From positions 1 through 26,267 of the forward strand of contig CAYOYE010000001.1 of NCBI GenBank assembly GCA_964408115.1: DNA of 26,267 nt. Direction: 5' to 3'. The notes beneath the pieces were generated by a model that saw nothing but the letters and a program-made list of their open reading frames with translations, was not told the origin of the DNA and did no database searches. The first letter of the stretch is position 1; each line of letters begins with the position of its first letter. This stretch comes from an uncultured Azospirillaceae bacterium. GTDB taxonomy: Bacteria > Pseudomonadota > Alphaproteobacteria > RF32 > CAG-239. Shown piece after piece: positions 32-25,118 of the stretch. Position numbers and translations under genes: made by a program.

Positions 32-784
32 TTATTCTCTTATTTCATCTTGATTATATTTAATAACCATAAATCCCATCGGATTAATCAGACGGCGGGA
101 AATTATTGTCCGTTCCGGCACAAAACGCGGCGTAATGGATGCTTTCATCCGCTTGGTTTTAAGGGTAAGCGCGCCACCGCTGGTACGGGATTTTGATAAA
201 TTATAGATTGTAAAGTTTACATACCATGCCGGACTACTCTCACTCACTTTGCCCAATTCATCTATTCTTACCTCGCTAGAATACTCGTTATCAAACATTT
301 TTTGGATATTCTGCGCATTCATACCGACAAATTCGGCATACACCGGTTGTGCCGACATATAATGTACTATTCCGCCCGGACCCCAGCGTGTACGCATTTC
401 CTGTTCATCATTAACCACAGTATTGCGCATAATAACGTATTGTTTTATATACATTTCTAAAAGTTGTTTATATGACGGCATATTTTTTGTTATCGGCTCA
501 TAACGAACCATGGTTGCCGAATCATTTTGCGTAATTATCAAAAGCGGCTCAACTATAATTTCGGGAGCCAGCCTGAAAATAACCAATGAAGCACTCAAAA
601 AAAACGCCAGCGAAAGAATAGCGCAAAGCATAACCAAACGTGATAACCACCGAAAATAAACCAGTTTTGCCGACCCTTCTTCTTTTTTGATGTCGGTTAT
701 GTATTGAGGCTGATAATCCGGATTTTGTTTGGCATTTTTATCTGTTAATAAAAACTTTTTATTTGCGTTTCCTAACTCTACCAT
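32..784 (-). CDS. virB8: VirB8/TrbF-family type IV secretion inner-membrane protein (250 aa)
   Basis: One N-terminal TM helix (LVMLCAILSLAFFLSASLVIF), YIKQYVIMRN helix and C-terminal 'INPMGFMVIKY' matching the VirB8 NPxGFxVxxY motif. Start moved from TTG 799 to ATG 784 (AGGTG 5 nt upstream). Confidence 0.85.
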   Translation of the reverse strand: MVELGNANKKFLLTDKNAKQNPDYQPQYITDIKKEEGSAKLVYFRWLSRLVMLCAILSLAFFLSASLVIFRLAPEIIVEPLLIITQNDSATMVRYEPITKNMPSYKQLLEMYIKQYVIMRNTVVNDEQEMRTRWGPGGIVHYMSAQPVYAEFVGMNAQNIQKMFDNEYSSEVRIDELGKVSESSPAWYVNFTIYNLSKSRTSGGALTLKTKRMKASITPRFVPERTIISRRLINPMGFMVIKYNQDEIRE

Positions 785-802
785 AATGACACCTGTCAAT
801 TT

Positions 803-3800
803 TTATAACGGATATACGGCACAATACGGAGCTTGTGATTTATCGGATTGTGCATCCATCTCCTCGGCTTCGGCATCTTCATATACTTTAACCACACTCC
901 GATTTGCCTCTTCGGTTTTAATTTGCTCTTCTAAATCATCTAAATCTTCCGTACCGGTAATTTGCACAACCTCATCCGCATCTTTTTCCAAAACTTCAAT
1001 CTGATGATTTACATCTTCCAGCTTTGTATCCAAAACGCCGTTTTCATTTTGGACGGTATCTATTTTTTCAGTAGCTTCTTTTATTGCGCCGGATTTAATA
1101 TTTTCAAGTGTCTTTTCGGCTTTTTGATAATCATCGGGAATTGTCAAATCAAATTTTTCGCTATAGTCATCATCTGCCGTATCAAAAACATTTTTTAGCT
1201 CATAACCGGCTTCGGTAAACAATGTATTAAGGCTTGTACGCACATCTGCCACCTGAAGTTCCACTTTAGCTAAATTATCGGCAGCCGTTTGTTCTTGTTC
1301 CACAAAATCCAAATAATCACCCAACTGATTACGGCTATACATTGTGCGATTATATACATAAAGATTTTTATCTATATTATCGGCATTTTCGCCGGAATTG
1401 TTAATTACATAAACAGCACGCAACAATGCCTGACGAATTGTCAACTTATGTTTCGGCTCTACTCCGTAGTGATTTACCGTATCCGGATCTGTCACGCTTT
1501 CCAAAATCTGTCCTAATTCACTGGATTTAGAGGCATCACCCGTAGTATCGGTTTCCGTTGATAAAACAAAAGTTTCGCCGGATTCCGCATCTTTTAGTTT
1601 GCCACCTTGTAATGTAAGGCCTTGGCAGTCCTGCGCAATGTTAGATTCTGCAGAACTGCTGTTACCTATGGTAAATCTGATATCTTGCGAAGAAGTTGCC
1701 GGAATAACGTCTATAGTCTTGCCGTTTAGCTTACAAGGGAATATACCGCCACGCATAAGACTTTTAGCCGGATTTCCCTGATTTAGCAACGTTTCATAAT
1801 CAATTTCTTTTTCAACATACGCACGGTGTTGTAAAATATATTGCCAAATTTCCGGCACTTCCAATCCGCTATCCAAAATACTGTTGCCGATAAGCGTAAT
1901 ATCTGCATTTGATGTCGGATTATCGGATTTTTGATATTTGAGAATATCGTTATAGTCAGACAAATCAAAGTGGAACACTTCTCTCAGCGGAGCCGAGGCA
2001 AAGTCAACCGGAGCTTTCGGCGCGCGGAAATCACGTTTTTTGCCGACAATTCCAACAAAATATTCATCATCCGGTTCCGTACAATTCGTGTCTTCACATA
2101 TTTTACTAAACATATTGACAAGATTTTTTAATATGTCGGCACCACCTTTTTCGCTAATTTTGGTAAATGTTTCGGTAGCATCCAAATCTTCTAAGGTGAT
2201 ATGTGTTATGTCGTAAATCATCTGATTATGAATATCCTTTACCCGACTACTGTTTTCGCTTTTATATAATACATCATTACTGCTTAATGCCATAATTTTA
2301 TTATATGCCTCATCCACCTTGTTTATGGCATAATTACGGACTAGAGAAACTATGTCGTTAGCTTTACCGACCGTAGAAAATTTTGCAGCAATTTCCGCTA
2401 ATTTTGCCTGTGCCACAACATTTTCATAGCTACTGTTTTCTGCAGCTATCTTTTTAGCAAATTCATATTCCTTATCACTATAGGCTTTGACATATTCCGA
2501 CGTTCTTTTTTCAATTTTTTCATCAATATTATCTAATTTTTTTTGCAAATCGGATTGTTTATCTTCTAAACCTGATATGCTGATATTAGCGTCATCCTGC
2601 TTTGCCTTACCGGTCTCGCTTTTTTCACTGTTTTCGTCTACCGTATTTTTCATCTCTTCCGTTTGCGGAGCTACCTCATCTCCATGTTTCATGGTCTCAC
2701 CGTATTCTATACCTTCTTCCGCCTGAGGTGATGTATTGGTGTCAGAACTTACATCATCGCTTCCATCATTATATTTTTGATTTGCCTCACTTAGCTGGGT
2801 ATTTACAGCTTTAAGCTTATCATATATAGTCGTCTTTGCCGCACTATATCCACTTATATCATCTTGGTAGGCAGATACAATAGCATCTAATGCCGTTGCC
2901 TCCTCTTGCAACAGGGAATCTAAATTTGCCGTTGGATTATCCGATTTAGAAGATTCCAGTTTTTGTATGTCGCTACGCACACTACTACGCGTGATAATCA
3001 TACCGCTTGCATCTAATATTTGTGATAGCGGAGATATTTTATTAACGATATTTTCCAAATCCAGCACAAGCGAAAATGCCGGTGCATTCTTTATATATTC
3101 CTTAATATTGTTATATTTACCCTCTAAATACTGATTATAGAAATAACGTTGGTCATTCCACATTGCAAAAGATCTCCTTTTATTTCCGTATAATGGCGAA
3201 GATTTTTCCAAATCTTTAGATATATTGGAGATAACTTTTTTGCCCAACGTCCAATTTAATAAAGCTCTTTCTCTGGATGACGCTTCCACTTCTTCCTCTT
3301 GCGCCGGATCTATCAAACTTTGCGGTTCATCATCGCTGCTACCGCTTTGGCTCTGTTTCTTTACTTCTTCAAGAGATGTTTTTGAACTGCTACCTTCTCC
3401 GGAACTACCCTTACTGACAATATACGCATCTGTTTCAATACTACTTTCATCGGCACTCGCCTCCGAACGTAAATTATACAGATAGCTGGCTATTCCGCTG
3501 GTCGTAAGCTCACTCTTATAAACATCGGCCACGAAACACTTATGGTTCGTATCTCCTTTGCAAAGTAAATCATATAATCCGCTACTTTCACTATTATCAT
3601 CTGCCGCCCGCTCCGGTGTATAGTGGCACATCATTCTGCCGTCATAAGATGAGCATTTGTTACCAAACCAACTTTTATCAGAAGATGTATAGTACGACCC
3701 GATAAAAGTCTGCGAACATTTTATGGAAGTTTGCAGATTCTCCAATGTTTTATCATGATATGCTTTCATATTGTTATACGAAGCAAAAATCTTTAAATAG

Positions 3801-4840
3801 TCCGGCAACATCTGTTTTGCATTGTGTGCCGATATAGCTCTATCAATATATTCTTGTGCCTCGGCAATTAATTCCAAACCTTCAAAGTCTGCTTCCCGTC
3901 CGCTAACCGGAGAGGCAATTCCGGTTTTCGGCAACGTTTCAAACGATACTTCCGCATACGCTGCCGGTGAGACAATACGTCCGGCAGTTGTACCGCTCAA
4001 AGGAGTGCTTATTTCATTTGCCGAGAAGTGCCATTTAACTTTAGTTGCCATATCTTTTGATTTTGAGCCTTCGTACTCGCGTATCTGAACATTTGTATTG
4101 ATTAAACGAACGCTATCAAATTGTGCATTCATTGCCACCAAAAACTCATTATACCGCATTATTTTATCATAAATACGAACAGCAGTCAAAGCATTGCGCC
4201 ATAGGCAAACCTTATCTTCTTCTCCCTCTGTCGGACTTTGGCAGTTATATTGTTCCAACCCCTGTTCGCTACAGTCTTCTCCGGCGACCAAACACTTTTC
4301 TATATTGTCCAACTCTGCCAGCATAACCGCAAGTTCTTTTTCCATTTCCTTTGCCGTAATATACATTTCCAGCGTAGTATCAAACTTTAACTGTTCACCC
4401 TTACGTTTATAATATCGCTTTACCCATTCTTCAGAAGAGCGGTGTTGCAAGAAAAGATAAATAAAAGCCTGAGACACCGAGGTAGGATCCGTTAAGTCGG
4501 CAAGTTTGCTATCCTCTATGGTTCGGGCATACGTTATAACTTTTTGCCGTTTTACTTTATTTTTGAGGTTGCTAAAAACACTTTTACCTAACTTGCTACC
4601 ATAGGATTTCAGGCTCTGTTTAATGTTTGAAAGGTTAGCAATTTCCTTAACTTTATCAATCTGGGCATTAACCTGACTATATGTAGATGTCAGATTTGAA
4701 ATCGTAGGCGGAATACACATTGCACAAAACTGCGGACTAAACGGAATCAGCGGAGTAAAATCCGGCCAAACAAAGGCATAAACCCGTGGGCTTAGTAAAA
4801 AACAAATTAGAAAAGCCGATACTGTTATAAATTTTTTCAT
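803..4840 (-). CDS. Large secreted protein of unknown function (1345 aa) with coiled-coil segments and clustered Cys; T4SS-associated
   Basis: Long ORF, RBS GAGGGAG before ATG 4840 (MKKFITV...RVYA signal peptide), no further TM segment, lies in the operon between virB4 and virB8. Confidence is for the ORF; function unknown. Confidence 0.8.
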   Translation of the reverse strand: MKKFITVSAFLICFLLSPRVYAFVWPDFTPLIPFSPQFCAMCIPPTISNLTSTYSQVNAQIDKVKEIANLSNIKQSLKSYGSKLGKSVFSNLKNKVKRQKVITYARTIEDSKLADLTDPTSVSQAFIYLFLQHRSSEEWVKRYYKRKGEQLKFDTTLEMYITAKEMEKELAVMLAELDNIEKCLVAGEDCSEQGLEQYNCQSPTEGEEDKVCLWRNALTAVRIYDKIMRYNEFLVAMNAQFDSVRLINTNVQIREYEGSKSKDMATKVKWHFSANEISTPLSGTTAGRIVSPAAYAEVSFETLPKTGIASPVSGREADFEGLELIAEAQEYIDRAISAHNAKQMLPDYLKIFASYNNMKAYHDKTLENLQTSIKCSQTFIGSYYTSSDKSWFGNKCSSYDGRMMCHYTPERAADDNSESSGLYDLLCKGDTNHKCFVADVYKSELTTSGIASYLYNLRSEASADESSIETDAYIVSKGSSGEGSSSKTSLEEVKKQSQSGSSDDEPQSLIDPAQEEEVEASSRERALLNWTLGKKVISNISKDLEKSSPLYGNKRRSFAMWNDQRYFYNQYLEGKYNNIKEYIKNAPAFSLVLDLENIVNKISPLSQILDASGMIITRSSVRSDIQKLESSKSDNPTANLDSLLQEEATALDAIVSAYQDDISGYSAAKTTIYDKLKAVNTQLSEANQKYNDGSDDVSSDTNTSPQAEEGIEYGETMKHGDEVAPQTEEMKNTVDENSEKSETGKAKQDDANISISGLEDKQSDLQKKLDNIDEKIEKRTSEYVKAYSDKEYEFAKKIAAENSSYENVVAQAKLAEIAAKFSTVGKANDIVSLVRNYAINKVDEAYNKIMALSSNDVLYKSENSSRVKDIHNQMIYDITHITLEDLDATETFTKISEKGGADILKNLVNMFSKICEDTNCTEPDDEYFVGIVGKKRDFRAPKAPVDFASAPLREVFHFDLSDYNDILKYQKSDNPTSNADITLIGNSILDSGLEVPEIWQYILQHRAYVEKEIDYETLLNQGNPAKSLMRGGIFPCKLNGKTIDVIPATSSQDIRFTIGNSSSAESNIAQDCQGLTLQGGKLKDAESGETFVLSTETDTTGDASKSSELGQILESVTDPDTVNHYGVEPKHKLTIRQALLRAVYVINNSGENADNIDKNLYVYNRTMYSRNQLGDYLDFVEQEQTAADNLAKVELQVADVRTSLNTLFTEAGYELKNVFDTADDDYSEKFDLTIPDDYQKAEKTLENIKSGAIKEATEKIDTVQNENGVLDTKLEDVNHQIEVLEKDADEVVQITGTEDLDDLEEQIKTEEANRSVVKVYEDAEAEEMDAQSDKSQAPYCAVYPL

Positions 4841-4882
4841 TGTTTTCTCCCTCTTACGCCACCGTATTATCACTTGTTATAC

Positions 4883-6103
4883 TCATTCTTCGCCTCGTTT
4901 CAGGTCTTTATATGTGAGTTCATAACTATCCAAATCCAGCTTTGTTACATCCTTATCATAGTCGTTCAGTTTGTATTGTGTCATACTTACTATATCAGAC
5001 GCTGCGTCGTACAATATTTCTGCCAGTAGCAGTTCCGTAAAACGCGCAGCCGTCTTGGCAACCTGCACATCGCCACCGATACGCATTGCCATTGCGCCAT
5101 AAACACCGTCTGCTTCCGTAGATGTATCGGAATATGCAACTGATGTGTCGGAAATAACAGAGCTTTCGTATACGCCCTTGGTTGAAACATAAGCTAAATC
5201 CTGCAAGGCATTATAAAAAGCAATATTACGGTTGCGTTTTACTTCTGCCAAAGCATCGCCGGCGGCATATTCCTTTTCTTTCAAAAAGAATTTACCGATA
5301 GAATCCGCATATAGCTCATTATTTTCGGCTTCTTCTTCATTATTTTCATCACCGAGAATTTTAGAAAACATCTCATCTGCCATATTTTGCAGTTTTTCTT
5401 TTTGTTTTTCCACATCTGCCTGTTTTTGCACTTCCGCCAAATCTTTTTCCAAATATGTAATTATAGATTCTTTCTCTTTAACTTCTCTTTCGTGTTCCTG
5501 ATCAACCAAATTATCCGCTTGATCGGCTTTCAGTTGAGCTATTTGCTTTTGAAGTTCTTCTTTTTCTTCATCAGTCTGCGCCGCCTCTAGTTTTGCCTGT
5601 AACTCAACAAGCTGGGCATTCATTTCAATATTTTTTGCTTCTTTTTCAGCCTTAAACGATTCTTTCAAGTTCTCAACTTCAGCCTTTAGTTTAGTTAAAT
5701 CCAGAGCTGTATTTGCGTACTTCTTATTCAGAAAACGAACATTATAATTAATGGTTCCGCTGGACCAATCAACATCTATACCGGCTTCAAGTCCGTTACG
5801 AAGTGTTTTATCCATAGCTTTAGTTCCGGCAGTCGTAGCCGCGTCAACGCCTTTTTCAGCTAATTTATGGAACAAACCTGAACCCTCACCGACCATACCG
5901 TCGCCGGCTCTTTTTACCTTGCCTTCCAACTTTGTCAACGCATTGTTATATGCTTGCTGTATCTTTTGTCTTAATTTTTCTTCCAAATCCGGTATTATGG
6001 TCGTTGGCGAAACAAAATCAAGTTTGGTTATTGCGTATGATTTGCCGGAGAATAAGCAAACCGCAACAAAAACAATAGTCATATATTTTAATATTTTCTT
6101 CAT
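4883..6103 (-). CDS. Secreted coiled-coil protein of unknown function (406 aa), possibly VirB5/TrbJ-like
   Basis: GGAG RBS, signal peptide ending KSYA, central E/K/Q-rich heptad region, helical C-terminal domain. Confidence 0.75.
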   Translation of the reverse strand: MKKILKYMTIVFVAVCLFSGKSYAITKLDFVSPTTIIPDLEEKLRQKIQQAYNNALTKLEGKVKRAGDGMVGEGSGLFHKLAEKGVDAATTAGTKAMDKTLRNGLEAGIDVDWSSGTINYNVRFLNKKYANTALDLTKLKAEVENLKESFKAEKEAKNIEMNAQLVELQAKLEAAQTDEEKEELQKQIAQLKADQADNLVDQEHEREVKEKESIITYLEKDLAEVQKQADVEKQKEKLQNMADEMFSKILGDENNEEEAENNELYADSIGKFFLKEKEYAAGDALAEVKRNRNIAFYNALQDLAYVSTKGVYESSVISDTSVAYSDTSTEADGVYGAMAMRIGGDVQVAKTAARFTELLLAEILYDAASDIVSMTQYKLNDYDKDVTKLDLDSYELTYKDLKRGEE

Positions 6104-6118: not shown

Positions 6119-6859
6119 CTATTTGCTTTCTTCGTCTGTTTTTTCCGTAGTAGCTATCTGACTTGCCGATATTATACTCTGTGCATTCTGCGTTTCCGTA
6201 CTTGCAATAAAGCCCAAAATAGTATTCCAACGCCCGCTGGCTCGGGTACTAACGGTTTTATATGCGTCTATGATTGTCGGCAAATCCGTCAGTTCGTCTT
6301 CTTCTTCCTGCCGCAGAGTTTCATCTTCATCCATAATGGCCTTGCGCAAAACCAAAGCCCGTCCGTATTTAAGAGCCGTATTTTCTACCATCAAATCATT
6401 TTGCTGTTTTTTAAATGCTGCCATAGCCGCCACATCATCGTTTAGGCCGCTTTTAATGGTATAATTTTCATCAACGGCCTCTTGCAACTCCGCGGTAACT
6501 CCGCCATTGCTCAATTTGGAAATTATACCTCCGATTGTAAAATCCTGACTATTGATGAGTTTATCCCGAGTTTCCGTTAAGACGCCGTCTATCGTCTGTT
6601 TTACTTGCGACTTTACCGTATTACCGATATTTTTGGCTGTATTACGCAGGTTCTTCAGTTTATTTAGGTTTTCACGATTAAGACTCGCTGACTGTAGTTG
6701 TTTTTGAACAGCCTCCAATTGTGACTGCACCTTGTTTTCTGCCTCCTGTGCCGTAGACAATATTTCCTGAATATTTGAGGTAAAGTCCAAATCGGCCCAT
6801 ACTTCGCGGGGAAGCAGAATCGCAACTAATACCAAGGTTATGTTAATTACTTTAATCAT
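6119..6859 (-). CDS. Secreted helical protein of unknown function (246 aa), possibly VirB5/TrbJ-like
   Basis: AGGGA RBS, signal peptide ending EVWA, Q/K/E-rich helical sequence. Confidence 0.75.
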   Translation of the reverse strand: MIKVINITLVLVAILLPREVWADLDFTSNIQEILSTAQEAENKVQSQLEAVQKQLQSASLNRENLNKLKNLRNTAKNIGNTVKSQVKQTIDGVLTETRDKLINSQDFTIGGIISKLSNGGVTAELQEAVDENYTIKSGLNDDVAAMAAFKKQQNDLMVENTALKYGRALVLRKAIMDEDETLRQEEEDELTDLPTIIDAYKTVSTRASGRWNTILGFIASTETQNAQSIISASQIATTEKTDEESK

Positions 6860-8214: not shown

Positions 8215-8224
8215 AGCGCAATTC

Positions 8225-8917: not shown

Positions 8918-8991
8918 GACAATCTCCAAATAGTCTGCTTTTCAATAATTCTACCGCAAATTTTGCGAAAAATAAACAATTTTCGTAAAAC

Positions 8992-12538: not shown

Positions 12539-12549
12539 TATTCCTCTCC

Positions 12550-12918: not shown

Positions 12919-12930
12919 ACGTTAGGTAAA

Positions 12931-17699: not shown

Positions 17700-17715
17700 T
17701 TTGAGGAGAACGGAA

Positions 17716-18957: not shown

Positions 18958-20590
18958 TCTGAAAAATAAAAATGTTGTCATAATTGCTTTTGTTTTTGCT
19001 GTTATGATGACGACAGGTCGCTTGGCTTACACCGAAGATAACGTACCTCCTTCAGGAGATGAGAGTGCTATTGTTGATCCTGCCGGCTCTGATGATATTT
19101 TCGGGCTGGATGACGAAACAACCATACCTGCTGCCGAAGAACAACCGACAGCCAAAGAAGTATCTGACGATAGTACCGAAAATTATACAGACGAGAATCC
19201 GGAAATTCCAACCGAAGTTAAAGAAAATCCGGAAATCGGTGATGTCGTAAACGGCGAAAACAATACCGATAAAACAGCAGAAAAAGACAATACCGCAGAA
19301 GACGATATTTTTGCGGACGATGAGGCTGATGATTTTGACGATTCCGGCTTAACCGATGAAGAAGGCAATGCAGAAGATGCCGAAGCTCCTAAATCGGAAG
19401 AAGCAGACGGAAAAGAAAAAGCAGAAGATAAAACCGAAGATAATATTGAGGCTGCCGAAGCTCCGAAATCCCCTTTTGAAAGTTTCGGTAACACAATTTT
19501 GGCGCGTGTAGATAATGATTTATTTAACCAGATGTCCAGCATTGAAAAACAGACAACTTTGTTAAATTTGGAATTAAAACGTGAGGAAGTACGCGATAGA
19601 ATTGAAGCCCTTAAAGAAAAAAGAGCGCAGGCAAAAGCCGAAAGATTGGCGCGTAAAAAAGAAGAAGAACGAAAAGAACAAGAAGAAGCGCTGAGAAGAA
19701 AGAAAGAACTGCTGTCAGAAGAACAAAAACTAAAAGAGCAGGAAATTCGTCTGGAAAAAGTGAGACAGGAAAAAGTACTCAATGAATATCGTAACGAAAT
19801 GCTGGAAATCAGCCAAAAATGGATAGCAAAAAATACGGAGCTGCTCTCTAAAATAAAAACAATGGAAGATGAGCGCAAAGCCCTTGCAAAAGATTTTGAA
19901 AACAAACTATCGGCCTTAAAGCGTGAAGCCGAAGCCTCAAAACGGAGAGCGCAGTCGGCTGTTGCCAGCGTTCAACGTAAAATAGAGTCATTGAATGCCC
20001 TTGTTGAAGATTTGAAGACTTCGCTAGCCGTTAGTGAAGACCGTTATAGAGCTGCCAAAGCCAATAAAGACGGACAAAATCCTTTTGCAACACAAGATGA
20101 ACTCGGACAGGACGCAGTAGATATGTCCCAAGAATATGCCATTATGGATATTACCGGTAAGGGCAAAGATATTGTTGCCAAAATTGTCAGCAAAGACGGG
20201 ACTACGTTTATAATACACCCGGGGTCTATGTTGAAGGGCGGTGAGGTTGTAACCTCTATTACCGATAACTATGTCGCTTTTGATAACAAAGGATTAAAGA
20301 GCTATCTCTATACCGGCGGTACGGTAATGAAGTATGAACCGCAGGTAACCTTTAACGGCTCCGATAAAACACCGGAAGTAACGGAAAAGCAGATAATAAA
20401 ACCGGATACACGAAATGTACTCGGCGGAGCAAGCACTAATACTGACAGTAGCGAAAATTCGTCAGATAAACAAGAAACGAAAAATAAAAATGATAAACAA
20501 ACCAAAAGCCGGAAAAGCACTTCAAACAGCCATAATGCGCAAAAAGGCGGCGGAGTAGTTTCATTTGGTCAGGGTATGTTTGTAAAATAG
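18947..20590 (+). CDS. pilP: Elongated PilP-like protein: signal peptide, acidic region, coiled coil, PilP domain (547 aa)
   Basis: ATG 18947 after AAGGGGG. Domain ~20132-20310 'IMDITGKGKDIVAKIVSKDG...HPGSMLKGGEVVTSI...VAF' fits the T4b PilP pattern; lies between pilO and pilQ. Confidence 0.65.
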   Translation: MSYNLKNKNVVIIAFVFAVMMTTGRLAYTEDNVPPSGDESAIVDPAGSDDIFGLDDETTIPAAEEQPTAKEVSDDSTENYTDENPEIPTEVKENPEIGDVVNGENNTDKTAEKDNTAEDDIFADDEADDFDDSGLTDEEGNAEDAEAPKSEEADGKEKAEDKTEDNIEAAEAPKSPFESFGNTILARVDNDLFNQMSSIEKQTTLLNLELKREEVRDRIEALKEKRAQAKAERLARKKEEERKEQEEALRRKKELLSEEQKLKEQEIRLEKVRQEKVLNEYRNEMLEISQKWIAKNTELLSKIKTMEDERKALAKDFENKLSALKREAEASKRRAQSAVASVQRKIESLNALVEDLKTSLAVSEDRYRAAKANKDGQNPFATQDELGQDAVDMSQEYAIMDITGKGKDIVAKIVSKDGTTFIIHPGSMLKGGEVVTSITDNYVAFDNKGLKSYLYTGGTVMKYEPQVTFNGSDKTPEVTEKQIIKPDTRNVLGGASTNTDSSENSSDKQETKNKNDKQTKSRKSTSNSHNAQKGGGVVSFGQGMFVK

Positions 20591-20597
20591 TAGTGTG

Positions 20598-22427
20598 ATG
20601 ATGGAAGAAGATAAAAAGCAGATTGAAAAACAGAAAGATACCGAAGCTATAGTAAGAGGAGTACTTCAGTCTGCAGCTTCTTTGCCTAAAGCATTGAAAA
20701 GTGAAAATGCCGAAAATAGCTCGGAAGATATGAATACAGCGGCAAACAGTACAACAAAGACCGCTACCGATGAGCCGCAAGCGGTTTCTGCTCCGGTAGG
20801 TTCTACTCCCGAAAAAGCGGGAAAATCTGATATTGTGGATGATAATCCGGAAGCAGGTAATGTTAATATTTTAAAAACGCTCTTTGCCAATGACAATAAG
20901 CTGTTAACGTCTGTTGACGGTGAACTCAATGTTGATGATGATACGCGCCGTATGCTGGCTCTTTTTTCGGACGGCAGCTATATTATAGATGAATCGCACC
21001 GCTTTGACGGTAAAGTGCTAAACTTTACAACAAATATGCGCCGCCGCAAAGTCCAGATAAATGCCCCGAAGTATGTTTCCGCTTCGGTTATCACCGCTAT
21101 TTATGCTTATGCCGATCGTGGTACCGGTAAAATTAACGTTTCGGCAGAAGAAGCCGCCGATTACCAGATGCAAATTGACTTTTTGCGGGTAATCAATCGG
21201 GCTGCCGCCAAAAAAGTATCTGATGTGCATGTAGTTGTGGCTGATTCTACTTTAGTGCTTTTCCGCATAAGCGGTATGATGGAGCGCGAACTGGAATATC
21301 CGAAAGAATGGGGCGAATCGTTTGTGCGTGCCGCATTTGCTTCGGCAGATATTTCCGATGCAAACTATGCCCAAAATGAGTTTCAGGGCGCACAAAAGCT
21401 AGGTTCTACGCCGTTGCGCGGTACTAATGGAAAATTAAAATTACCGCATAACGTTTTGGCTATTCGTTTGCAATTCAACCCCGTTGCTTTCGGTTCGCAA
21501 TATTTGGTTATGCGTCTGCTGTACGCTGATGATAACCCTAACGGAAACGGTGATTTACGCTCGCTTGGTTTAGGCGAACGGGAGCTTGATTTGTTTTACC
21601 GCCTGCGTGCCACCGCCGTAGGTTTGAATATTATTGCCGGTCCGACAGGCTCGGGAAAATCAACAACTTTACAACGTAATTTGATAAGGCTTATTCAAGA
21701 GAGAAAAGGCGAAATTAACGTAATTACGGTGGAAGACCCGCCGGAGTACCCTATTCCGGGGGCAAGACAGATGCCTGTAACCAATGCAAACTCGGAAGAA
21801 GAAAAAGACGAGGAATTTACTAAAGCCTTATCGGCAGCTTTGCGTTCCGATCCGGATGTGATGATGGTCGGTGAAATTCGTTCGCTTTCTGCCGCCAGCC
21901 TTGTGTTTAAGGGCGCATTGTCCGGACACAGTGTGTGGTCAACATTACACGCCAACTCGGCGCCGGCAATTGTAACACGTTTGCGCGATATGGGAGTACA
22001 ACCGTATATGTTGAGTGATCCGGAAATTATGAAAGGCTTAATATCTCAACGTTTGTTCAGAAAAATCTGCCCGTACTGTCGGGTATCCGTAAAAGAGAGA
22101 ATGTCGGATCCGTCATTTGCCCGTCTGAAAACGGCATTAGGTGATTATGGCGTAGAAAACACTTATTTACGCGGTCCAGGGTGTAAATTTTGCAACCATA
22201 AGGGCGTTATAGGACGTATGTCAGTGCCGGAAATAATTATTCCTGACGCTCACTTCCTGCAGCTAATCGTCAGCGGAGATACAAAGAATGCCATTGATTA
22301 CTGGGTCAGCGATTTAGACGGACGTCCATTGCGTGAGGCGGCTATTGAACGAATGTTAAAAGGTTATATTGATTTGGATGAAGTAGAACGGTGGTGCGGA
22401 TTGTTAGACCAGCGACCGATTTATTAA
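20598..22427 (+). CDS. pilQ: Type IVb pilus assembly ATPase PilQ, GspE/PulE family (~609 aa)
   Basis: Walker A GPTGSGKST, Asp box TVEDPPE, Walker B LRSDPDVMMVGEIR, His box STLHAN, Zn ligands CPYC/CKFC. Exact start (20595/20598/20601) is uncertain. Confidence 0.93.
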   Translation: MMEEDKKQIEKQKDTEAIVRGVLQSAASLPKALKSENAENSSEDMNTAANSTTKTATDEPQAVSAPVGSTPEKAGKSDIVDDNPEAGNVNILKTLFANDNKLLTSVDGELNVDDDTRRMLALFSDGSYIIDESHRFDGKVLNFTTNMRRRKVQINAPKYVSASVITAIYAYADRGTGKINVSAEEAADYQMQIDFLRVINRAAAKKVSDVHVVVADSTLVLFRISGMMERELEYPKEWGESFVRAAFASADISDANYAQNEFQGAQKLGSTPLRGTNGKLKLPHNVLAIRLQFNPVAFGSQYLVMRLLYADDNPNGNGDLRSLGLGERELDLFYRLRATAVGLNIIAGPTGSGKSTTLQRNLIRLIQERKGEINVITVEDPPEYPIPGARQMPVTNANSEEEKDEEFTKALSAALRSDPDVMMVGEIRSLSAASLVFKGALSGHSVWSTLHANSAPAIVTRLRDMGVQPYMLSDPEIMKGLISQRLFRKICPYCRVSVKERMSDPSFARLKTALGDYGVENTYLRGPGCKFCNHKGVIGRMSVPEIIIPDAHFLQLIVSGDTKNAIDYWVSDLDGRPLREAAIERMLKGYIDLDEVERWCGLLDQRPIY

Positions 22428-22437: not shown

Positions 22438-23556
22438 ATGCCTGAAGTAAAAAAGACAAGTGCCTATAACAGGGCTATGCGCAATAACAATGAATGGGTT
22501 GTTACATACGCCAAAATTATGTGTTCTATCTCCAACAAAGGAAGATTAAAAATATATCGTAAACTGGCGGCCTTATTGCGCAACCGATTTTCTTTGATGA
22601 ATTCGCTGGAAATGATTTATAACGGCTTGTCTGATGAGGGGAGACACCCAAATTCTCCGTTAGCTGTGGCAATTTGTGCATGGGGACGCTCACTGCAGGA
22701 AGGTCATCCGTTTTCCGATTGTCTAAAAGGTTGGGCCCCAAACCGCGAACGACTAATGCTTTCGGTTGGTGATGTATCGGACTTGGAAGATGCTTTGCTA
22801 AACCTTATTAAAGTGTCGGAAGGTTCTACACGAATGATTCGTCCGATTATCAGCGCCGTAACCTACCCGTCTTTCCTGCTTATGATGTCAGTACTTATTA
22901 TGTACGCTATCGGTGTTTATATGGTGCCGCCAATGTTAAGTGCCGCCCCTAATACCATCTGGACGGGTACTGCCAAAACCTTAATTAACCTTTCGGAATG
23001 GATACAGGTCAACTGGTTGACGGCATTTATGATTTTTCCGGTTATTGCTACAATAATCTATGTTACTATCGGCTACTGGACCGGTCCTATACGGGTTAAA
23101 TTTGACCGTTTTCCACCATGGTCATTATATAAAATCTTTACCGGTATCACCTGGTTGTTGGCCCTTTCTGCCTTAATTAAGGGCGGTGTGCCGGTTTCGG
23201 TTGCCTTATCTTCACTGCGACGGGATTCCAGTCGTTATCTTAAAGAACGGATTGACGGAGCATTATTCCACATTAAAAACGGTGAAAACCTCGGACAATC
23301 TTTAGATAAGGCCGGACACGAATTTCCGGATAAAATGATTATTGCCGATTTGAAGATTTATTCGGAATTGGATAACTTTGAAGAAGCTCTGGATAAACTG
23401 GCTAACGAATGGTTGGAAGAATCCGTATATATGATTGAACAAAGAGCCGAAATTTTGAATATGGTGGCAATGCTCGCCGTATCTGGTATTATTGCCTGGG
23501 CCGTATTCGGAACGTTTGATATGCAAGATCAAATCACCAGCTCTATGGGTAAATAG
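22438..23556 (+). CDS. pilR: Type IVb pilus inner-membrane platform PilR, GspF family (372 aa)
   Basis: AAGGAGG RBS; two GspF-like helical repeats and three TM segments; follows the ATPase. Confidence 0.9.
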   Translation: MPEVKKTSAYNRAMRNNNEWVVTYAKIMCSISNKGRLKIYRKLAALLRNRFSLMNSLEMIYNGLSDEGRHPNSPLAVAICAWGRSLQEGHPFSDCLKGWAPNRERLMLSVGDVSDLEDALLNLIKVSEGSTRMIRPIISAVTYPSFLLMMSVLIMYAIGVYMVPPMLSAAPNTIWTGTAKTLINLSEWIQVNWLTAFMIFPVIATIIYVTIGYWTGPIRVKFDRFPPWSLYKIFTGITWLLALSALIKGGVPVSVALSSLRRDSSRYLKERIDGALFHIKNGENLGQSLDKAGHEFPDKMIIADLKIYSELDNFEEALDKLANEWLEESVYMIEQRAEILNMVAMLAVSGIIAWAVFGTFDMQDQITSSMGK

Positions 23557-23566: not shown

Positions 23567-24109
23567 ATGGCTGTAAATAGTTTGCATAAATACCATTTAA
23601 ACGGAGTTGCCGGACTGGTCGTTCTGGTTATAATGATTGCAATTTGCGCCGGATTGGGTATTGTTTCGGCATTTAATCCGCATAAAGATTTGCATAATCA
23701 GATATTAATTACGGCGGCAAAAGTACATAATTATTATCGCGACAAACCCGGATATTGGAAGTTATCAACCCAGAGTGCAAAAGATGACGGACTAATTTCA
23801 GCAGAGTTGTCCGGCTATCGGGATTATGACATTCAGATAGGTCAAGGTGTAAACGGGGAAAGCGGATTGCCGGCAAATCAAACTTTTGATATTACGATAA
23901 AAAACCTGAGTAAATCGGCTTGTATAAGTTTGAGCGAGTTGGAAATATCTAAAGATAATCAGTTGACTTTACAAAAGATAACCGTTTTCAATGATACCGG
24001 TACAATGGAGTTTGCTTGGGACGGGGAGCATAAACTACCGATAGCAAAGTATGCAACACGCAACTTCTGTCAACCGCAAAACAACGTTATAATGTGGACA
24101 TTTGATTAA
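23567..24109 (+). CDS. PilS-like type IVb pilin with a non-canonical leader (180 aa)
   Basis: GAGGTG before ATG 23567; N-terminal hydrophobic helix, 'VHNYY...GYWKL', 'FDITIKNLSKSAC' and a terminal Cys pair as in PilS-type pilins; no Glu at +5. Confidence 0.7.
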   Translation: MAVNSLHKYHLNGVAGLVVLVIMIAICAGLGIVSAFNPHKDLHNQILITAAKVHNYYRDKPGYWKLSTQSAKDDGLISAELSGYRDYDIQIGQGVNGESGLPANQTFDITIKNLSKSACISLSELEISKDNQLTLQKITVFNDTGTMEFAWDGEHKLPIAKYATRNFCQPQNNVIMWTFD

Positions 24110-24112
24110 GCT

Positions 24113-24138
24113 AAACCGCCTGCTTTAACAGGCGGTTT
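24113..24138. terminator. Intrinsic terminator between convergent genes, likely bidirectional
   Basis: AAACCGCCTG-CTTTAA-CAGGCGGTTT, a perfect 10-bp stem followed by ATTTTT on the plus strand, between stops at 24109 and 24147. Confidence 0.88.
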
Positions 24139-24146
24139 ATTTTTCG

Positions 24147-25118
24147 TTACTCGTCTTTTTGTACTTTATCCCACAATGGAACGCCAAGGCGTATACGGGT
24201 CATCTGCATTTCTATTGTTGTAGCCAAATTTGTTTTACCGCTTTTGATAATGGTACGGGTCTGGTCGCCCTGTGTTGTATCCGGATTAGCAAAAACATAT
24301 TGTACTTTCGGATATTTTTGTCCGACACCCACCAACGTCTGATGAATAACCCCCAAAATACCTCGCGACAATAAGTCGTATGCAAGATCTTCGCTCATAT
24401 CACTACCGGAAGCATGCTTAATCAACGCATCAATGGCATCCGAAACGTTGTTGGCGTGAATTGTAGATAAAACCAAGTGGCCCGAAGTTGCTGCTCGCAA
24501 GCACTCACTGGCTGCGGCAGGTGTGCGAATCTCTCCTACCAAAATATAACGCGGTCTTGACCGCAGAGCCGAACGCAGAGCCGCACCCCAGTCATCGTTG
24601 CGCGGTTGCGTTTGTTTACACAAACCTAAAGAACCGTTATTAGCTTTGTATTCACCGTCAAGCGGCATTTCAAACGGGTCTTCAATAGTATAAGCAAACC
24701 CGCCGTTTTCAATCAGATATTCTTGCAGCAAACTGGAAATAGTTGTTGTTTTACCCGATCCGGTAGCTCCGCCGATAAGAATCAGCCCCGAGGCCCAACC
24801 TAAAGTTGCTAAATACTTTGTCAACTCCGGCGGATATCCTAAACAGCTCAAATCAGGCACTTTTTTCGGCATTTTACGCATACAGTAAGTGATTCCGTAC
24901 ATGGTTACAGAACGCTCTACGCGGAAAAAATATCCCTCATAAATGATAGAATAGCTGGAATTACCCTGATATGTTTTTTCCAATAACTCAAAAAAATCTT
25001 GAAAGTCTTCCGGACATATTTGCTTTAATCCGTCCTCAGTTCGGCGGTCCGGCACAAATACAGATTTTGACGGGGTGATATAAATATCTGAATAAAATTC
25101 ATCATTAATTCTAGCCAT
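24147..25118 (-). CDS. pilT: PilT/BfpF-like pilus retraction ATPase (323 aa)
   Basis: AAGGAG before ATG 25118; GATGSGKTT, TIEDPFE, LRSRPRYILVGEIR, GHLVLSTIHAN; no Zn motif and no long N-domain, unlike PilQ. The symbol refers to the retraction ATPase, not the R64 transglycosylase PilT. Confidence 0.8.
   Translation of the reverse strand: MARINDEFYSDIYITPSKSVFVPDRRTEDGLKQICPEDFQDFFELLEKTYQGNSSYSIIYEGYFFRVERSVTMYGITYCMRKMPKKVPDLSCLGYPPELTKYLATLGWASGLILIGGATGSGKTTTISSLLQEYLIENGGFAYTIEDPFEMPLDGEYKANNGSLGLCKQTQPRNDDWGAALRSALRSRPRYILVGEIRTPAAASECLRAATSGHLVLSTIHANNVSDAIDALIKHASGSDMSEDLAYDLLSRGILGVIHQTLVGVGQKYPKVQYVFANPDTTQGDQTRTIIKSGKTNLATTIEMQMTRIRLGVPLWDKVQKDE

What the first reader, a model, noticed from the sequence alone, without database searches (positions are those of the whole stretch)
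32..25118. Back-to-back VirB T4SS and type IVb pilus operons forming one apparently domesticated contact machine
Seen: the two operons diverge from a single 373-bp intergenic region, a retraction ATPase lies at the far end next to a housekeeping peptidase, and no relaxase, VirD4, integrase or IS is in the window. Known: a thin T4b pilus paired with a VirB-type T4SS occurs on IncI2 conjugative plasmids, where the pilus stabilises mating pairs. Inference: here the pair looks chromosomal, possibly CtrA-controlled and heavily rebuilt (three pilins, five secreted proteins, elongated struts). That suggests a grab-and-retract plus contact-secretion system for attaching to host, prey or partner cells rather than for plasmid transfer.
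Basis: partly seen in the sequence, partly recalled or inferred. Interest (0 to 1): 0.82.

Follow-up and report, generated by a model that had tools for sequence, protein, structure and literature searches.

The report
Core-genome secretion machine plus pilus
A clade of uncultured, small-genome gut and rumen Alphaproteobacteria carries a type IV secretion system back to back with a type IVb pilus as an inherited chromosomal locus without DNA-transfer genes, so it is most likely a tool for gripping and acting on other cells, not a plasmid or ICE.

Summary
A VirB operon (3 VirB2, VirB3, VirB4, five secreted ORFs, VirB8) and an R64/BFP-like type IVb pilus operon diverge from one 364/373-bp spacer. 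A PilT-like ATPase and an M29 peptidase lie at the far end.

The window is a whole contig of a 1.07-Mb MAG. In congeners the locus runs on for about 43 kb: VirB7-like lipoprotein, second VirB8, VirB9, giant beta-flower proteins, VirB10, VirB11, then engB and yidC. VirD4 and 4-5 tandem enlarged VirB6 paralogs lie elsewhere.

- No MOBP/MOBF/MOBQ relaxase was found in five genomes.
- VirB4 is in 23 of 24 and the pilus secretin in 48 of 50 genomes of the genus.
- 57 of 63 related loci keep the divergent pair, and at least one other order does too.
- The nearest plasmid homologues are at most 38% identical.
- Composition is typical of the genome.
- A ctrA gene exists, and a TTAA-N7-TTAA box is the best-conserved spacer element.
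- Gut metatranscriptomes contain pieces of both operons.

The target cell and any functional coupling of the two machines are inferred. The scan found this super-locus before in other genomes. Three paper searches pairing RF32 or CAG-239 with secretion terms found no description.

The parts
32..799 (-). virB8a, first of two VirB8 paralogs; the contig ends 31 nt after it
   Evidence: PF04335 E 1.5e-12. 65-73% identical in congeners, where virB7-like and virB8b follow it.
803..4873 (-). orf1356, giant secreted protein (likely start 4840); fast-evolving
   Evidence: Signal peptide, no TM segment beyond it, 17 Cys. No Pfam or NCBIfam hit. Mean 32% identity in the genus and 25% in other genera. Atlas search uninformative.
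4883..6103 (-). orf406, secreted protein of unknown family
   Evidence: Signal peptide; no family above cut-off; mean 30% identity in the genus.
6119..6859 (-). orf246, secreted, Cys-free, VirB5-sized protein
   Evidence: Signal peptide, no Cys; no family hit; mean 31% identity in the genus.
6892..8250 (-). orf452, secreted Cys-rich protein (22 Cys)
   Evidence: mean 36% identity in the genus.
8225..8929 (-). orf234 (likely start 8917), secreted all-helical protein in the VirB5 position
   Evidence: Signal peptide. AF2 model all helical but mean pLDDT 60. No fold or PDB sequence match. Mean 31% identity in the genus.
8973..8990 (-). Direct-repeat element (TTTTAC / TTGTTTA, 11-bp phase) upstream of the five-gene block
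   Evidence: Read. It resembles the element at 13471-13486. Lead from earlier scan note e1-3691171.
8992..11421 (-). virB4 ATPase
   Evidence: TIGR00929 E 3.6e-113, PF03135. 84-89% identical in 23 of 24 genus genomes.
11418..11705 (-). virB3
   Evidence: PF05101 E 0.0044, below cut-off; 2-3 hydrophobic segments; conserved position, about 70% identity in the genus.
11707..12144 (-). orf145, small secreted lineage-specific protein
   Evidence: Signal peptide; no family hit; found in 35 of 35 genus loci at 35% mean identity.
12158..13305 (-). Three tandem VirB2/TrbC pilin genes: virB2c 12158-12538, virB2b 12550-12867, virB2a 12931-13305
   Evidence: PF04956 E 1e-09 (b), 7e-07 (a), 0.0078 (c). All three are kept in most related loci. 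virB2a has the highest depth bin in 4 of 4 metatranscriptomes.
13306..13669 (.). Divergent control region (373 bp if orf531 starts at ATG 13679)
   Evidence: Alignment of 24 genus spacers shows mostly unconserved sequence with a few conserved blocks.
13471..13486 (-). Direct-repeat element (TTGTTTAC..TTTTAC) about 170 nt upstream of virB2a
   Evidence: its core is at least 95% conserved in 24 spacers.
13579..13593 (.). CtrA-type box TTAA-N7-TTAA, about 76-85 nt upstream of orf531
   Evidence: Exact match. Present at the same position in 23 of 23 genus spacers tested, absent in 5 spacers of another genus. Best-conserved block of the spacer. ctrA gene present on contig C217.
13670..15265 (+). 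orf531: secreted protein, largely disordered, with a C-terminal OmpA/MotB/Pal-like domain (about residues 420-525); candidate peptidoglycan anchor of the pilus machine
   Evidence: AF2 pLDDT 82-90 only in the C-terminal domain. Foldseek finds OmpA-like domains, E 1.6e-05, target TM 0.53-0.62. The C-terminus is highly conserved and is kept in another order, G310.
15314..16096 (+). PilL/TcpQ-family lipoprotein
   Evidence: PF10671 E 1.4e-16; a Cys in lipoprotein-like context after the N-terminal hydrophobic segment.
16062..17699 (+). PilN-type secretin
   Evidence: PF00263 E 4e-17; present in 48 of 50 genus genomes at 58-86% identity.
17701..18957 (+). PilO (PAP_PilO family)
   Evidence: PF06864 E 5.1e-19; 21% identity, E 3e-17, to the PilO-position protein of an E. 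coli plasmid T4bP cluster.
18917..20590 (+). Enlarged PilP-like protein (orf557)
   Evidence: TIGR03021 pilP_fam E 4.9e-04, below cut-off; N-terminal TM segment; sits in the PilP position of the R64/BFP gene order.
20595..22427 (+). PilQ-type assembly ATPase
   Evidence: PF00437 E 2.3e-65; best plasmid matches at most 38% identical.
22438..23556 (+). PilR-type platform protein (T2SSF)
   Evidence: PF00482 E 1.4e-22.
23567..24109 (+). Pilin-like protein: short basic leader ending in Gly, then a hydrophobic helix, but no Glu at +5
   Evidence: Sequence. The same is true of the G021 and G012 orthologs, whereas G025 (another family) has a canonical pilin with E5 at this position. No family hit.
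24112..24139 (.). Terminator-like hairpin between the pilus operon and the convergent ATPase gene; palindromic stem, so it could act on both
   Evidence: 11-bp stem with 6 GC pairs, T run after it on the + strand.
24147..25118 (-). PilT/BfpF-like second ATPase (323 aa), candidate retraction motor
   Evidence: TIGR01420 120 bits, below the 319 cut-off. Best PDB matches are PilT, E 6.6e-21. 38% identity, E 2e-47, to the 323-aa second ATPase of an E. coli plasmid T4bP cluster. No AIRNLIRE motif.
25168..25182 (.). Second TTAA-N7-TTAA box, about 50 nt upstream of the PilT-like ATG
   Evidence: a box at the equivalent place in G021.
25175..26263 (-). M29 aminopeptidase: housekeeping flank, not part of the machine
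   Evidence: PF02073 E 2.2e-50; same flank in G021.

Best explanation
The window is about 60% of a roughly 43-kb, vertically inherited chromosomal super-locus of an uncultured gut/rumen alphaproteobacterial lineage. From the record titles I think this is GTDB RF32/CAG-239.

One arm encodes a complete but remodelled VirB/VirD4 (P-type) type IV secretion system. Its channel genes (4-5 enlarged VirB6 paralogs) and its coupling ATPase (VirD4) lie at other chromosomal sites. The other arm encodes an R64/BFP-like type IVb pilus with a second, PilT-like ATPase.

Most likely mechanism (inferred):
1. The pilus, switched on through the conserved CtrA-type boxes, attaches the cell to a partner cell and probably retracts.
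2. The T4SS then builds a VirB2 pilus or channel, decorated by fast-evolving secreted proteins.
3. VirD4 feeds protein substrates through it into or onto the partner.

It is not a conjugation module.

Shown: gene content, completeness, chromosomal fixation, lack of the tested relaxases, conservation pattern, conserved boxes, and presence in RNA libraries.

Inferred: functional coupling of the two machines, retraction, protein rather than DNA substrates, and the identity of the target. I lean towards a eukaryotic cell because ankyrin-repeat ORFs are numerous. A bacterial target stays open.
For: Completeness:
- VirB2 x3, VirB3, VirB4 and VirB8 are in the window.
- VirB8b, VirB9, VirB10 and VirB11 are on C84 and C9, which overlap by 55 nt.
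- A VirB7-like lipoprotein lies between the two virB8 genes.
- VirD4 is on C97.
- The VirB6-like paralogs on C6 have 4-6 TM segments.
- The prepilin peptidase lies next to groES/groEL.

Fixation:
- Congeners show a colinear locus from M29 to engB/yidC.
- VirB4 is in 23 of 24 and PilN in 48 of 50 genus genomes.
- 57 of 63 loci keep the divergent pair. So does G310, from another order.
- VirB4 at 51% identity or more and PilQ at 50% or more co-occur in nine families of 0.9-2.5 Mb genomes.
- The same families rank top for YidC similarity.

Not mobile:
- No relaxase Pfam hit in five genomes.
- The nearest plasmid VirB4 is 38% identical and the nearest plasmid PilQ at most 38%.
- The nearest outgroup VirB4 genes are chromosomal islets among housekeeping genes.
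- Tetranucleotide correlation with the rest of the genome is 0.983.

Surface-exposed, fast-evolving parts: the five secreted ORFs are 30-36% identical within the genus, against 87% for VirB4.

Regulation: ctrA gene and conserved boxes.

Expression hint: short contigs over both operons in four gut metatranscriptomes, with a peak on virB2a in all four.

Target hint: 4-10 ankyrin-repeat ORFs per 1.1-1.6 Mb genome.
Against: - No experiment or imaging exists, and the organism is uncultured.
- The relaxase search covered three Pfam families only (MOBP, MOBF, MOBQ types). MOBH, MOBV, MOBC and unknown relaxases were not searched.
- The RNA evidence consists of assembler contigs at low depth, and DNA carry-over cannot be excluded.
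- The pilin-like gene lacks Glu5, and the PilT-like ATPase lacks the AIRNLIRE motif and scores below the family cut-off. Pilus function and retraction are therefore unproven.
- In about 10% of related loci the pilus operon is not next to virB, so adjacency is not obligatory.
- The join between C1 and C84 rests on synteny in relatives, not on overlapping sequence.
- Binning by composition makes the tetranucleotide test partly circular.
- Ankyrin repeats also occur in free-living control genomes.
Confidence: 0.7

Rival explanations
1. The locus is an ordinary integrative conjugative element or an integrated plasmid transfer region. The pilus stabilises mating pairs, as on IncI-type plasmids.
For: - The nearest named relatives of VirB4 are plasmid conjugation modules with a MobA/MobL relaxase.
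- The T4bP gene order matches plasmid-borne clusters.
- VirD4 is present.
Against: - No relaxase in five genomes.
- Housekeeping flanks are kept in synteny.
- Presence is near universal and single-copy across the genus and beyond.
- Components are scattered over at least three chromosomal sites.
- At most 38% identity to any of 72,556 plasmids.
- Composition is typical of the genome.
Confidence: 0.04
2. The pair is a DNA uptake or release apparatus: a ComB-like or gonococcal-island-like T4SS with a DNA-binding retractile pilus. It would serve natural transformation in a reduced genome.
For: - Retractile type IV pili are the usual DNA receptors in competence, and T4SSs without a conjugative relaxase can import or export DNA. 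Both points are established knowledge about ComB and GGI and were not tested here.
- The PilT-like ATPase is present.
Against: - VirD4 and VirB11 are both kept. As far as I know, the ComB uptake system lacks a VirD4.
- Five hypervariable secreted proteins, three pilins and giant repeat proteins point to contact with a variable partner surface.
- I did not search for ComEC or ComEA.
Confidence: 0.08
3. The T4SS is an antibacterial killing or epibiotic-feeding machine aimed at other gut bacteria, as in Xanthomonadales X-T4SS or as proposed for basal Rickettsiales. The pilus holds the prey.
For: - Two VirB6-like paralogs carry peptidoglycan hydrolase domains, M23 peptidase and SleB-type cell wall hydrolase.
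- The habitat is extremely dense in bacteria.
- Related gut Alphaproteobacteria with reduced genomes are proposed to depend on partners (PMC12306168).
- Basal Rickettsiales are proposed to use rvh to kill congeners (PMC11077975).
Against: - The hydrolase domains sit on polytopic membrane proteins. They may simply replace VirB1 for local wall remodelling.
- No XVIPCD domain was found in 13 genomes, but the control was silent, so this is weak.
- Numerous ankyrin-repeat ORFs fit a eukaryotic target better.
Confidence: 0.22
4. The two operons are neighbours only by descent from an IncI2-like ancestor and now work independently. The pilus would serve adhesion or twitching, and the T4SS secretion.
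For: - Adjacency is lost in about 10% of loci, and in G011 the pilus operon lies on another contig while both systems are retained.
- In G440 the two are about 190 kb apart.
- The CtrA box sits next to the pilus arm. A different direct-repeat element sits at the virB2 and five-gene promoters.
Against: - The divergent arrangement is retained over VirB4 divergence down to about 60% identity and across orders.
- In the 400-genome sample every genome with a VirB4 at 51% identity or more also has the PilQ clade.
Confidence: 0.25

Closest known systems
Rickettsiales vir homolog (rvh) T4SS (PMC2653234, PMC11077975)
   Same: - Chromosomal, vertically inherited, relaxase-less P-type T4SS of small-genome Alphaproteobacteria.
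- Split into several islets.
- Duplicated VirB8.
- 4-5 tandem enlarged VirB6 paralogs.
- Multiple VirB2, as I recall for Anaplasmataceae.
- VirD4 and VirB11 retained.
   Different: - Single VirB4 and a single detected VirB9.
- Five hypervariable secreted ORFs between VirB4 and VirB8.
- Giant beta-flower VirB10 plus a giant beta-flower partner protein.
- The VirB6 cluster is not next to virB4.
- Welded to a type IVb pilus.
- Phylogenetic relation to rvh could not be tested, because no named rvh sequences were reachable.
Conjugative plasmids and ICEs that pair a PilL-V type IVb thin pilus with a T4SS (IncI1 R64, IncI2 R721-type, PAPI-1/ICEclc)
   Same: - R64/BFP gene order: TcpQ/PilL, secretin, PilO, PilP, ATPase, platform, pilin.
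- The pilus cluster lies physically next to a T4SS.
   Different: - No relaxase and no mobility genes here.
- No shufflon or PilV adhesin and no in-cluster peptidase or transglycosylase.
- At most 38% identity to any plasmid homologue.
- Fixed in the chromosome of a whole clade.
- The plasmid pairing itself is recalled from the literature and was not tested here.
Alphaproteobacterial plasmid VirB/VirD4 modules (Microvirga sp. VF16 pMVF16-3; Sphingosinicella and Erythrobacter aureus plasmids)
   Same: - Closest named VirB4 relatives, 33-38% identity.
- Same core order: virB2-virB3-virB4, three ORFs, small ORF, virB8-virB9 (550 aa)-virB10-virB11-virD4.
   Different: - The plasmid module carries a MobA/MobL relaxase, one VirB2 and one VirB8, a normal-sized VirB10, and VirD4 in cis.
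- No pil genes are annotated within 20 kb of it.
Bundle-forming-pilus-like T4bP clusters of E. coli plasmids
   Same: - Same gene order, including a second 323-aa ATPase directly after the platform protein. That ATPase is 38% identical to the window's PilT-like ATPase.
- In EPEC the equivalent protein, BfpF, drives retraction (my knowledge).
   Different: - Here the second ATPase is inverted and convergent.
- The major pilin is E5-less and last in the operon.
- An OmpA-like protein is first.
- The peptidase is elsewhere in the genome.
Helicobacter pylori Cag T4SS (CagY) and Bartonella Trw
   Same: - A giant repeat-bearing VirB10 homologue (CagY-like in size).
- Multiplied pilus subunit genes and variable surface components in a host-interaction T4SS derived from a conjugation system.
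- This resemblance is from my knowledge only.
   Different: - No sequence relationship beyond the shared VirB domains.
- The repeats here are beta-flower/DUF3659 type.
- Trw lacks VirD4, whereas this system keeps it.

Membership tests
P-type (VirB/VirD4, MPF_T) type IV secretion system | VirB4 ATPase | tested here: met
   TIGR00929 E 3.6e-113; PF03135 above cut-off.
P-type (VirB/VirD4, MPF_T) type IV secretion system | VirB2 pilin and VirB3 | tested here: met
   Two of three VirB2 genes score above the PF04956 cut-off. The third VirB2 and VirB3 score below cut-off but fit by position and TM pattern.
P-type (VirB/VirD4, MPF_T) type IV secretion system | Outer-membrane core VirB7/VirB9/VirB10 plus VirB8 | tested here: met
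   VirB8 x2, VirB9 (PF03524) and VirB10 (PF03743) score above cut-off. VirB7 is only a conserved 62-aa lipoprotein candidate.
P-type (VirB/VirD4, MPF_T) type IV secretion system | Polytopic VirB6 channel protein | tested here: met
   Not in the window. 4-5 tandem TrbL-like paralogs lie on contig C6 and in four congeners, with 4-6 TM segments. Scores are near the cut-off.
P-type (VirB/VirD4, MPF_T) type IV secretion system | VirB11 and VirD4 ATPases | tested here: met
   VirB11: TIGR02788 E 3.7e-44. VirD4: PF02534 E 7.4e-56 plus TraG-D_C.
P-type (VirB/VirD4, MPF_T) type IV secretion system | VirB5 tip protein and VirB1 transglycosylase | tested here: inconclusive
   orf234 and orf246 are VirB5-sized and secreted; orf234 models as all helical. 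No sequence or fold match. No VirB1 as such; M23 and Hydrolase_2 domains are fused to VirB6-like proteins.
Conjugative element (plasmid or ICE transfer region) | Relaxase (and oriT) | tested here: not met
   PF03432, PF08751 and PF03389 give no hit in G000 or four 99-100% complete congeners. Other MOB families and oriT were not searched.
Conjugative element (plasmid or ICE transfer region) | Mobile context: integrase or att flanks, patchy distribution, foreign composition | tested here: not met
   Housekeeping flanks in synteny; 23 of 24 and 48 of 50 genus genomes; tetranucleotide r 0.983. An integrase family was not searched genome-wide.
Rickettsiales vir homolog (rvh) T4SS | Duplicated VirB8 and multicopy enlarged VirB6; components in islets | tested here: met
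   Hallmarks as listed in PMC11077975 and PMC2653234.
Rickettsiales vir homolog (rvh) T4SS | Duplicated VirB4 and VirB9 | tested here: not met
   One VirB4 match per genome in the genus. One CagX match in G000.
Rickettsiales vir homolog (rvh) T4SS | No VirB5 analogue | tested here: inconclusive
   No recognisable VirB5, but two candidates of VirB5 size exist.
Rickettsiales vir homolog (rvh) T4SS | Phylogenetic membership in the rvh clade | not testable with these tools
   No named Rickettsiales sequences could be retrieved. Cluster names were 'Alphaproteobacteria bacterium' or absent.
Type IVb pilus (R64 PilL-S / BFP / TCP kind) | TcpQ/PilL lipoprotein, secretin, PilO, assembly ATPase, platform protein in the canonical order | tested here: met
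   PF10671, PF00263, PF06864, PF00437 and PF00482 all score above cut-off. Same order as an E. coli plasmid T4bP cluster.
Type IVb pilus (R64 PilL-S / BFP / TCP kind) | Prepilin with class III signal (Gly -1, Glu +5) and a prepilin peptidase | tested here: inconclusive
   Gly -1 and the hydrophobic helix are present, but Glu +5 is absent in this genus. An A24 peptidase exists on C138.
PilT/PilU retraction ATPases | Family-level score and the C-terminal AIRNLIRE motif | tested here: not met
   TIGR01420 scores 120 bits against a 319 cut-off. No AIRNLIRE motif. It works like a T4bP second ATPase: 38% identity to one.
CtrA regulon | ctrA gene and conserved TTAA-N7-TTAA box in the promoter region | tested here: met
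   NF045991 scores 400 bits against a 350 cut-off. The box is conserved in 23 of 23 genus spacers tested and is the best-conserved block. A second box lies upstream of the PilT-like gene, also in G021. Binding was not tested.

The most novel reading that the evidence does not exclude
This would be a second, independently domesticated (or anciently shared) rvh-like T4SS of Alphaproteobacteria, permanently coupled to a retractile type IVb pilus and placed under cell-cycle (CtrA) control. It would be the lifestyle-defining organelle of RF32/CAG-239 and neighbouring small-genome gut lineages: a grab, retract and inject machine by which these bacteria live as epibionts or parasites on gut protists, host cells or other bacteria. 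The rvh system would then no longer be a uniquely rickettsial signature.
Probability: 0.3. Interest if true: 0.8.

Novelty: new variant of a known kind. Interest (0 to 1): 0.62.

Why it matters
RF32/CAG-239-type Alphaproteobacteria are widespread in human (notably non-industrial), ruminant and other animal guts. They have 1.2-2 Mb genomes and no cultured member, so how they live is unknown.

A complete, expressed-looking, vertically inherited contact machine that takes up about 4% of the genome gives a concrete, testable hypothesis: attachment to, and injection into, a partner cell.

It also offers a natural experiment in how conjugation systems are turned into host-interaction organelles. It parallels rvh, Trw and Cag but includes a pilus. 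If the clade proves related to rvh, the claim that rvh is a purely rickettsial signature (PMC11077975) would need revision.

Searches pairing RF32 or CAG-239 with secretion terms returned no paper. The paper on the related Rs-D84 gut lineage does not use the word 'secretion' at all.

Tried and rejected
- Contig joining. I looked for end overlaps of C1 with all contigs and found none. Only C84 and C9 overlap, by 55 nt.
- VirB8 affinity. PDB sequence searches with VirB8a and VirB8b gave only weak Bartonella TrwG hits for VirB8a, and nothing significant (E 0.39 or worse) for VirB8b. No Rickettsia VirB8-like entry appeared.
- Placing VirB4 relative to rvh. I used 1.84 billion cluster representatives and a FastTree, then three rounds of cluster naming. 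Names were absent or just 'Alphaproteobacteria bacterium', so the rvh relation stays open.
- Spotting Rickettsiales-like genomes in the class sample. Looking for VirB4 duplicates and at the neighbourhood of one low-GC genome was not diagnostic.
- The Pfam PilO family search across the order missed genomes known to hold PilO: G000, G012 and G021. I discarded its counts and repeated the search with a protein query.
- orf234. The AF2 model was poor (pLDDT 60), with no Foldseek hit.
- PDB profile searches for orf234 and orf531 gave nothing.
- The Atlas search for orf1356 was uninformative.
- The TLC and XVIPCD family searches were negative, but their controls were silent, so they carry no weight.
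- The window-wide count of TTAA-N7-TTAA (2 found, 2.6 expected) is not above chance. The case for the box rests on conservation, not on enrichment.

Full report
**What is in the window.** The 26,267-base window is the whole of contig C1, the longest contig of a 1.07-Mb MAG. The MAG has 236 contigs, is 90% complete and 0.01% contaminated, and has 41% GC.

ORF listing and Pfam/NCBIfam scans show a minus-strand operon:
- virB2a, virB2b, virB2c
- orf145
- virB3
- virB4
- five ORFs (234, 452, 246, 406 and 1356 aa)
- virB8

The plus-strand operon is:
- orf531
- a TcpQ/PilL lipoprotein
- a secretin
- PilO
- orf557
- a T2SSE ATPase
- a T2SSF platform protein
- a pilin-like ORF

A convergent PilT-like ATPase gene and an M29 aminopeptidase gene close the contig. 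Each of the five ORFs has a signal peptide and no further hydrophobic segment. They are secreted proteins, and none is a VirB6. No relaxase, VirD4, integrase or transposase domain occurs in the window.

**The rest of the machine.** The contig cannot be extended, so I searched the genome.
- VirB10 (PF03743) lies on C9, VirB9 (PF03524) on C84 and VirD4 (PF02534) on C97.
- C84 and C9 overlap by 55 nt. Together they read virB8b, virB9 (550 aa with a SPOR domain), a roughly 1,470-aa membrane-anchored beta-flower repeat protein, a 1,398-aa protein with beta-flower repeats and a C-terminal VirB10 domain, and virB11. The housekeeping genes engB and yidC follow, convergent.
- A conserved 62-aa lipoprotein gene, a VirB7 candidate, lies just upstream of virB8b on C84. 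In three relatives it lies between the two virB8 genes.
- VirB6 is not missing. Four to five tandem, enlarged TrbL/VirB6-like paralogs (462-1,092 aa, 4-6 hydrophobic segments) lie on contig C6 and in all four congeners examined. Two of them carry an M23 peptidase domain or a SleB-type cell-wall hydrolase domain.
- The prepilin peptidase lies next to groES/groEL on C138.

**Chromosomal fixation.** In two near-complete congeners (G021, G012) everything is colinear in one locus of about 43 kb. The order is M29 and PilT-like gene (both only in G021), pilus operon, divergent spacer, virB2 x3 through virB8a, virB7-like, virB8b, virB9, beta-flower proteins, virB10, virB11, engB, yidC. The C1-to-C84 join in this MAG is therefore inferred from synteny.

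- VirB4 is single-copy at 84-89% identity in 23 of 24 species of the genus. The exception is 83% complete.
- The pilus secretin is in 48 of 50 genus genomes.
- Of 80 related loci fetched from named public MAGs, 63 have a full 10-kb upstream flank. Of these, 57 keep the divergent pilus operon.
- By their record titles these MAGs are uncultured gut and rumen Alphaproteobacteria from Hadza, Nepali and Brazilian people, cattle, sheep, deer, yak, horse, rabbit and chicken. They include 'Candidatus Scatocola' and 'Azospirillum sp. UMGS63'. From my own knowledge this points to GTDB RF32/CAG-239.
- In a 400-genome sample of the class, a VirB4 at 51% identity or more and a PilQ ATPase at 50% or more co-occur in nine families, all with 0.9-2.5 Mb genomes. 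They are adjacent and divergent in at least three of these families. One of those is in another order, where I confirmed the layout directly.
- Three of those families (f20, f72, f100) are among the best YidC matches outside the window's own family. The machine's divergence therefore tracks that of a housekeeping gene.

**Not a mobile element.**
- Pfam relaxase families PF03432, PF08751 and PF03389 give no hit in this genome or in four 99-100% complete congeners.
- Among 72,556 plasmids the best VirB4 match is 38% identical. It is Microvirga pMVF16-3, a classical module with a MobA/MobL relaxase, a single virB2 and virB8, and virD4 in cis.
- The best plasmid PilQ match is also at most 38% identical.
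- Among 1.84 billion cluster representatives, the closest full-length non-RF32 VirB4 relatives (49% and 42% identity) are two- to five-gene T4SS islets embedded among housekeeping genes. One sits near an ankyrin-repeat gene.
- Tetranucleotide usage of C1 correlates at 0.983 with the rest of the genome, better than most contigs. Binning makes this test partly circular.

The ICE/plasmid reading is therefore very unlikely.

**The pilus arm.** The gene order TcpQ, secretin, PilO, PilP, ATPase, platform is that of R64/BFP-type type IVb pili. An E. coli plasmid cluster shows the same order.
- orf557 has a weak PilP-family hit in the right position.
- orf531 is mostly disordered, but its conserved C-terminal domain folds with high confidence. 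It matches OmpA/MotB/Pal peptidoglycan-binding domains (Foldseek E 1.6e-05). It is probably a wall anchor.
- The PilT-like ATPase is closest to PilT among solved structures. It is 38% identical, and of the same 323-aa length, to the second ATPase of the E. coli T4bP cluster. It falls below the PilT family cut-off and lacks the AIRNLIRE motif. It is a T4bP-linked second ATPase and plausibly a retraction motor, by analogy with BfpF (my knowledge). It is not a certified PilT.
- The pilin-like gene has Gly at -1 and a hydrophobic helix but no Glu5 in this genus. A relative in another family has a canonical E5 pilin at that position.

**Evolutionary pattern and regulation.** Core parts are conserved within the genus: VirB4 87%, secretin 74%, VirB3 70%. 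The five secreted ORFs, orf145 and orf531 are only 30-42% identical and mostly undetectable outside the genus. This is the pattern expected of surface parts that meet a variable partner.

- A ctrA gene is present (NF045991, 400 bits against a 350 cut-off).
- The TTAA-N7-TTAA box at 13579-13593 is not enriched in the window. It does sit at the same position in 23 of 23 genus spacers tested, and it is the best-conserved block of an otherwise variable spacer.
- A second box lies about 50 nt upstream of the PilT-like gene, here and in G021. Both boxes flank pilus-related promoters.
- A different element, an 11-bp-phased TTGTTTA/TTTTAC repeat, precedes virB2a and the five-gene block. An earlier scan note on another genome pointed me to it.

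**Expression and target hints.** Four animal-gut metatranscriptome runs hold short contigs, 95-100% identical, over virB4, virB3, the virB2 genes, two secreted ORFs and pilL through the pilin-like gene. The highest depth is on virB2a in all four runs, and none falls on the spacer. This suggests transcription, but depth is low and DNA carry-over cannot be excluded.

Ankyrin-repeat ORFs are numerous, about 4-10 per 1.1-1.6 Mb genome. This favours a eukaryotic target mildly. The peptidoglycan hydrolase domains on VirB6-like proteins keep an antibacterial role open. TLC and XVIPCD searches were negative, but their controls were silent.

**Comparison with known systems.** Functionally and architecturally the T4SS most resembles the Rickettsiales rvh system.

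| Feature | rvh (PMC2653234, PMC11077975) | This system |
|---|---|---|
| Chromosomal, vertical, in islets | yes | yes |
| VirB8 duplicated | yes | yes |
| Enlarged VirB6 in several copies | yes | yes, 4-5 |
| VirB4 and VirB9 duplicated | yes | no |
| Pilin genes | not compared here | three in tandem |
| Secreted-protein array | not compared here | five ORFs |
| VirB10 | not compared here | giant, beta-flower repeats |
| Linked type IVb pilus | not compared here | yes |

Its phylogenetic relation to rvh could not be tested. I do not file it as rvh. The pairing with a type IVb pilus echoes IncI-type plasmids and PAPI-1-type ICEs, but here it is fixed and without DNA-processing genes.

**Verdict.** The scan has reported this same super-locus several times in other genomes of the lineage, with concordant conclusions. 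Searches pairing RF32 or CAG-239 with secretion terms returned no paper. The paper on the related Rs-D84 gut lineage does not use the word 'secretion' at all. My verdict is a new variant of a known kind. The domestication reading is well supported. The function remains inferred.

Noticed in passing
G000 contigs C84:2728-4404 and C9:2-6993 (L006, L005): A roughly 1,470-aa TM-anchored protein and the 1,398-aa VirB10 are both built of beta-flower (PF21785/PF21784), DUF3659 and RHS-like repeats. This gives a CagY-sized VirB10 and a partner protein whose N-terminus resembles the membrane anchor of canonical VirB10. They are 57-75% identical in congeners.
   Followed up: partly
G000 contig C6:52-12475 (L123): Five tandem large genes plus a 166-aa ORF. 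Four have TrbL/VirB6-like segments. The 1,092-aa protein has an N-terminal M23 peptidase domain, and the 896-aa protein has a SleB-type cell wall hydrolase domain. The wall-cutting function appears to be fused to channel paralogs instead of residing in a separate VirB1.
   Followed up: partly
G000 contig C84:~105-293; G021, G012 and G025 between the two virB8 genes: A conserved 62-aa lipoprotein (lipobox LSAC, conserved SYYEPE..GIGK and a C-x-C pair) in the VirB7 position, between the two virB8 genes in three relatives. As I recall it, the published rvh layout is the same.
   Followed up: partly
window 8973-8990 and 13471-13486 (minus strand): An 11-bp-phased TTGTTTA / TTTTAC direct-repeat element precedes both virB2a and the five-gene block. 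Its core is at least 95% conserved in 24 genus spacers. It probably binds a response regulator other than CtrA.
   Followed up: partly
window 25168-25182: A second TTAA-N7-TTAA box overlaps the end of the M29 gene, about 50 nt upstream of the PilT-like ATG. A box lies at the same place in G021. There are 56 such boxes in the whole 1.07-Mb genome.
   Followed up: partly
window 23567-24109 versus G025:C2 about 27.6-28.3 kb: The pilin-like gene of this genus lacks Glu5. A relative in another family has, at the same position after pilR, an unrelated canonical pilin with a G|RSMIE signal. The pilin gene seems to have been replaced or remodelled within the lineage.
   Followed up: partly
G007:C1:112951-115303: In one congener virB4 is broken: 3 TGA and 1 TAA inside the N-terminal part, and the match is split in two.
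   Followed up: no
G000 contigs C173, C61, C32, C2 and many sites in G004, G011, G012, G021: Several ankyrin-repeat ORFs per genome, up to 1,055 aa here and about 10 ORFs in G012. These are candidate T4SS substrates.
   Followed up: no
G000 contig C97:1-1518: virD4 is preceded by a 505-aa ORF with a weak NERD nuclease-related domain hit (E 0.0015, below the family cut-off) and two hydrophobic segments.
   Followed up: no
G011 (C14 versus C1), G440:C27: In some genomes the pilus operon has moved away from virB, to another contig or about 190 kb away, while both systems are retained.
   Followed up: partly
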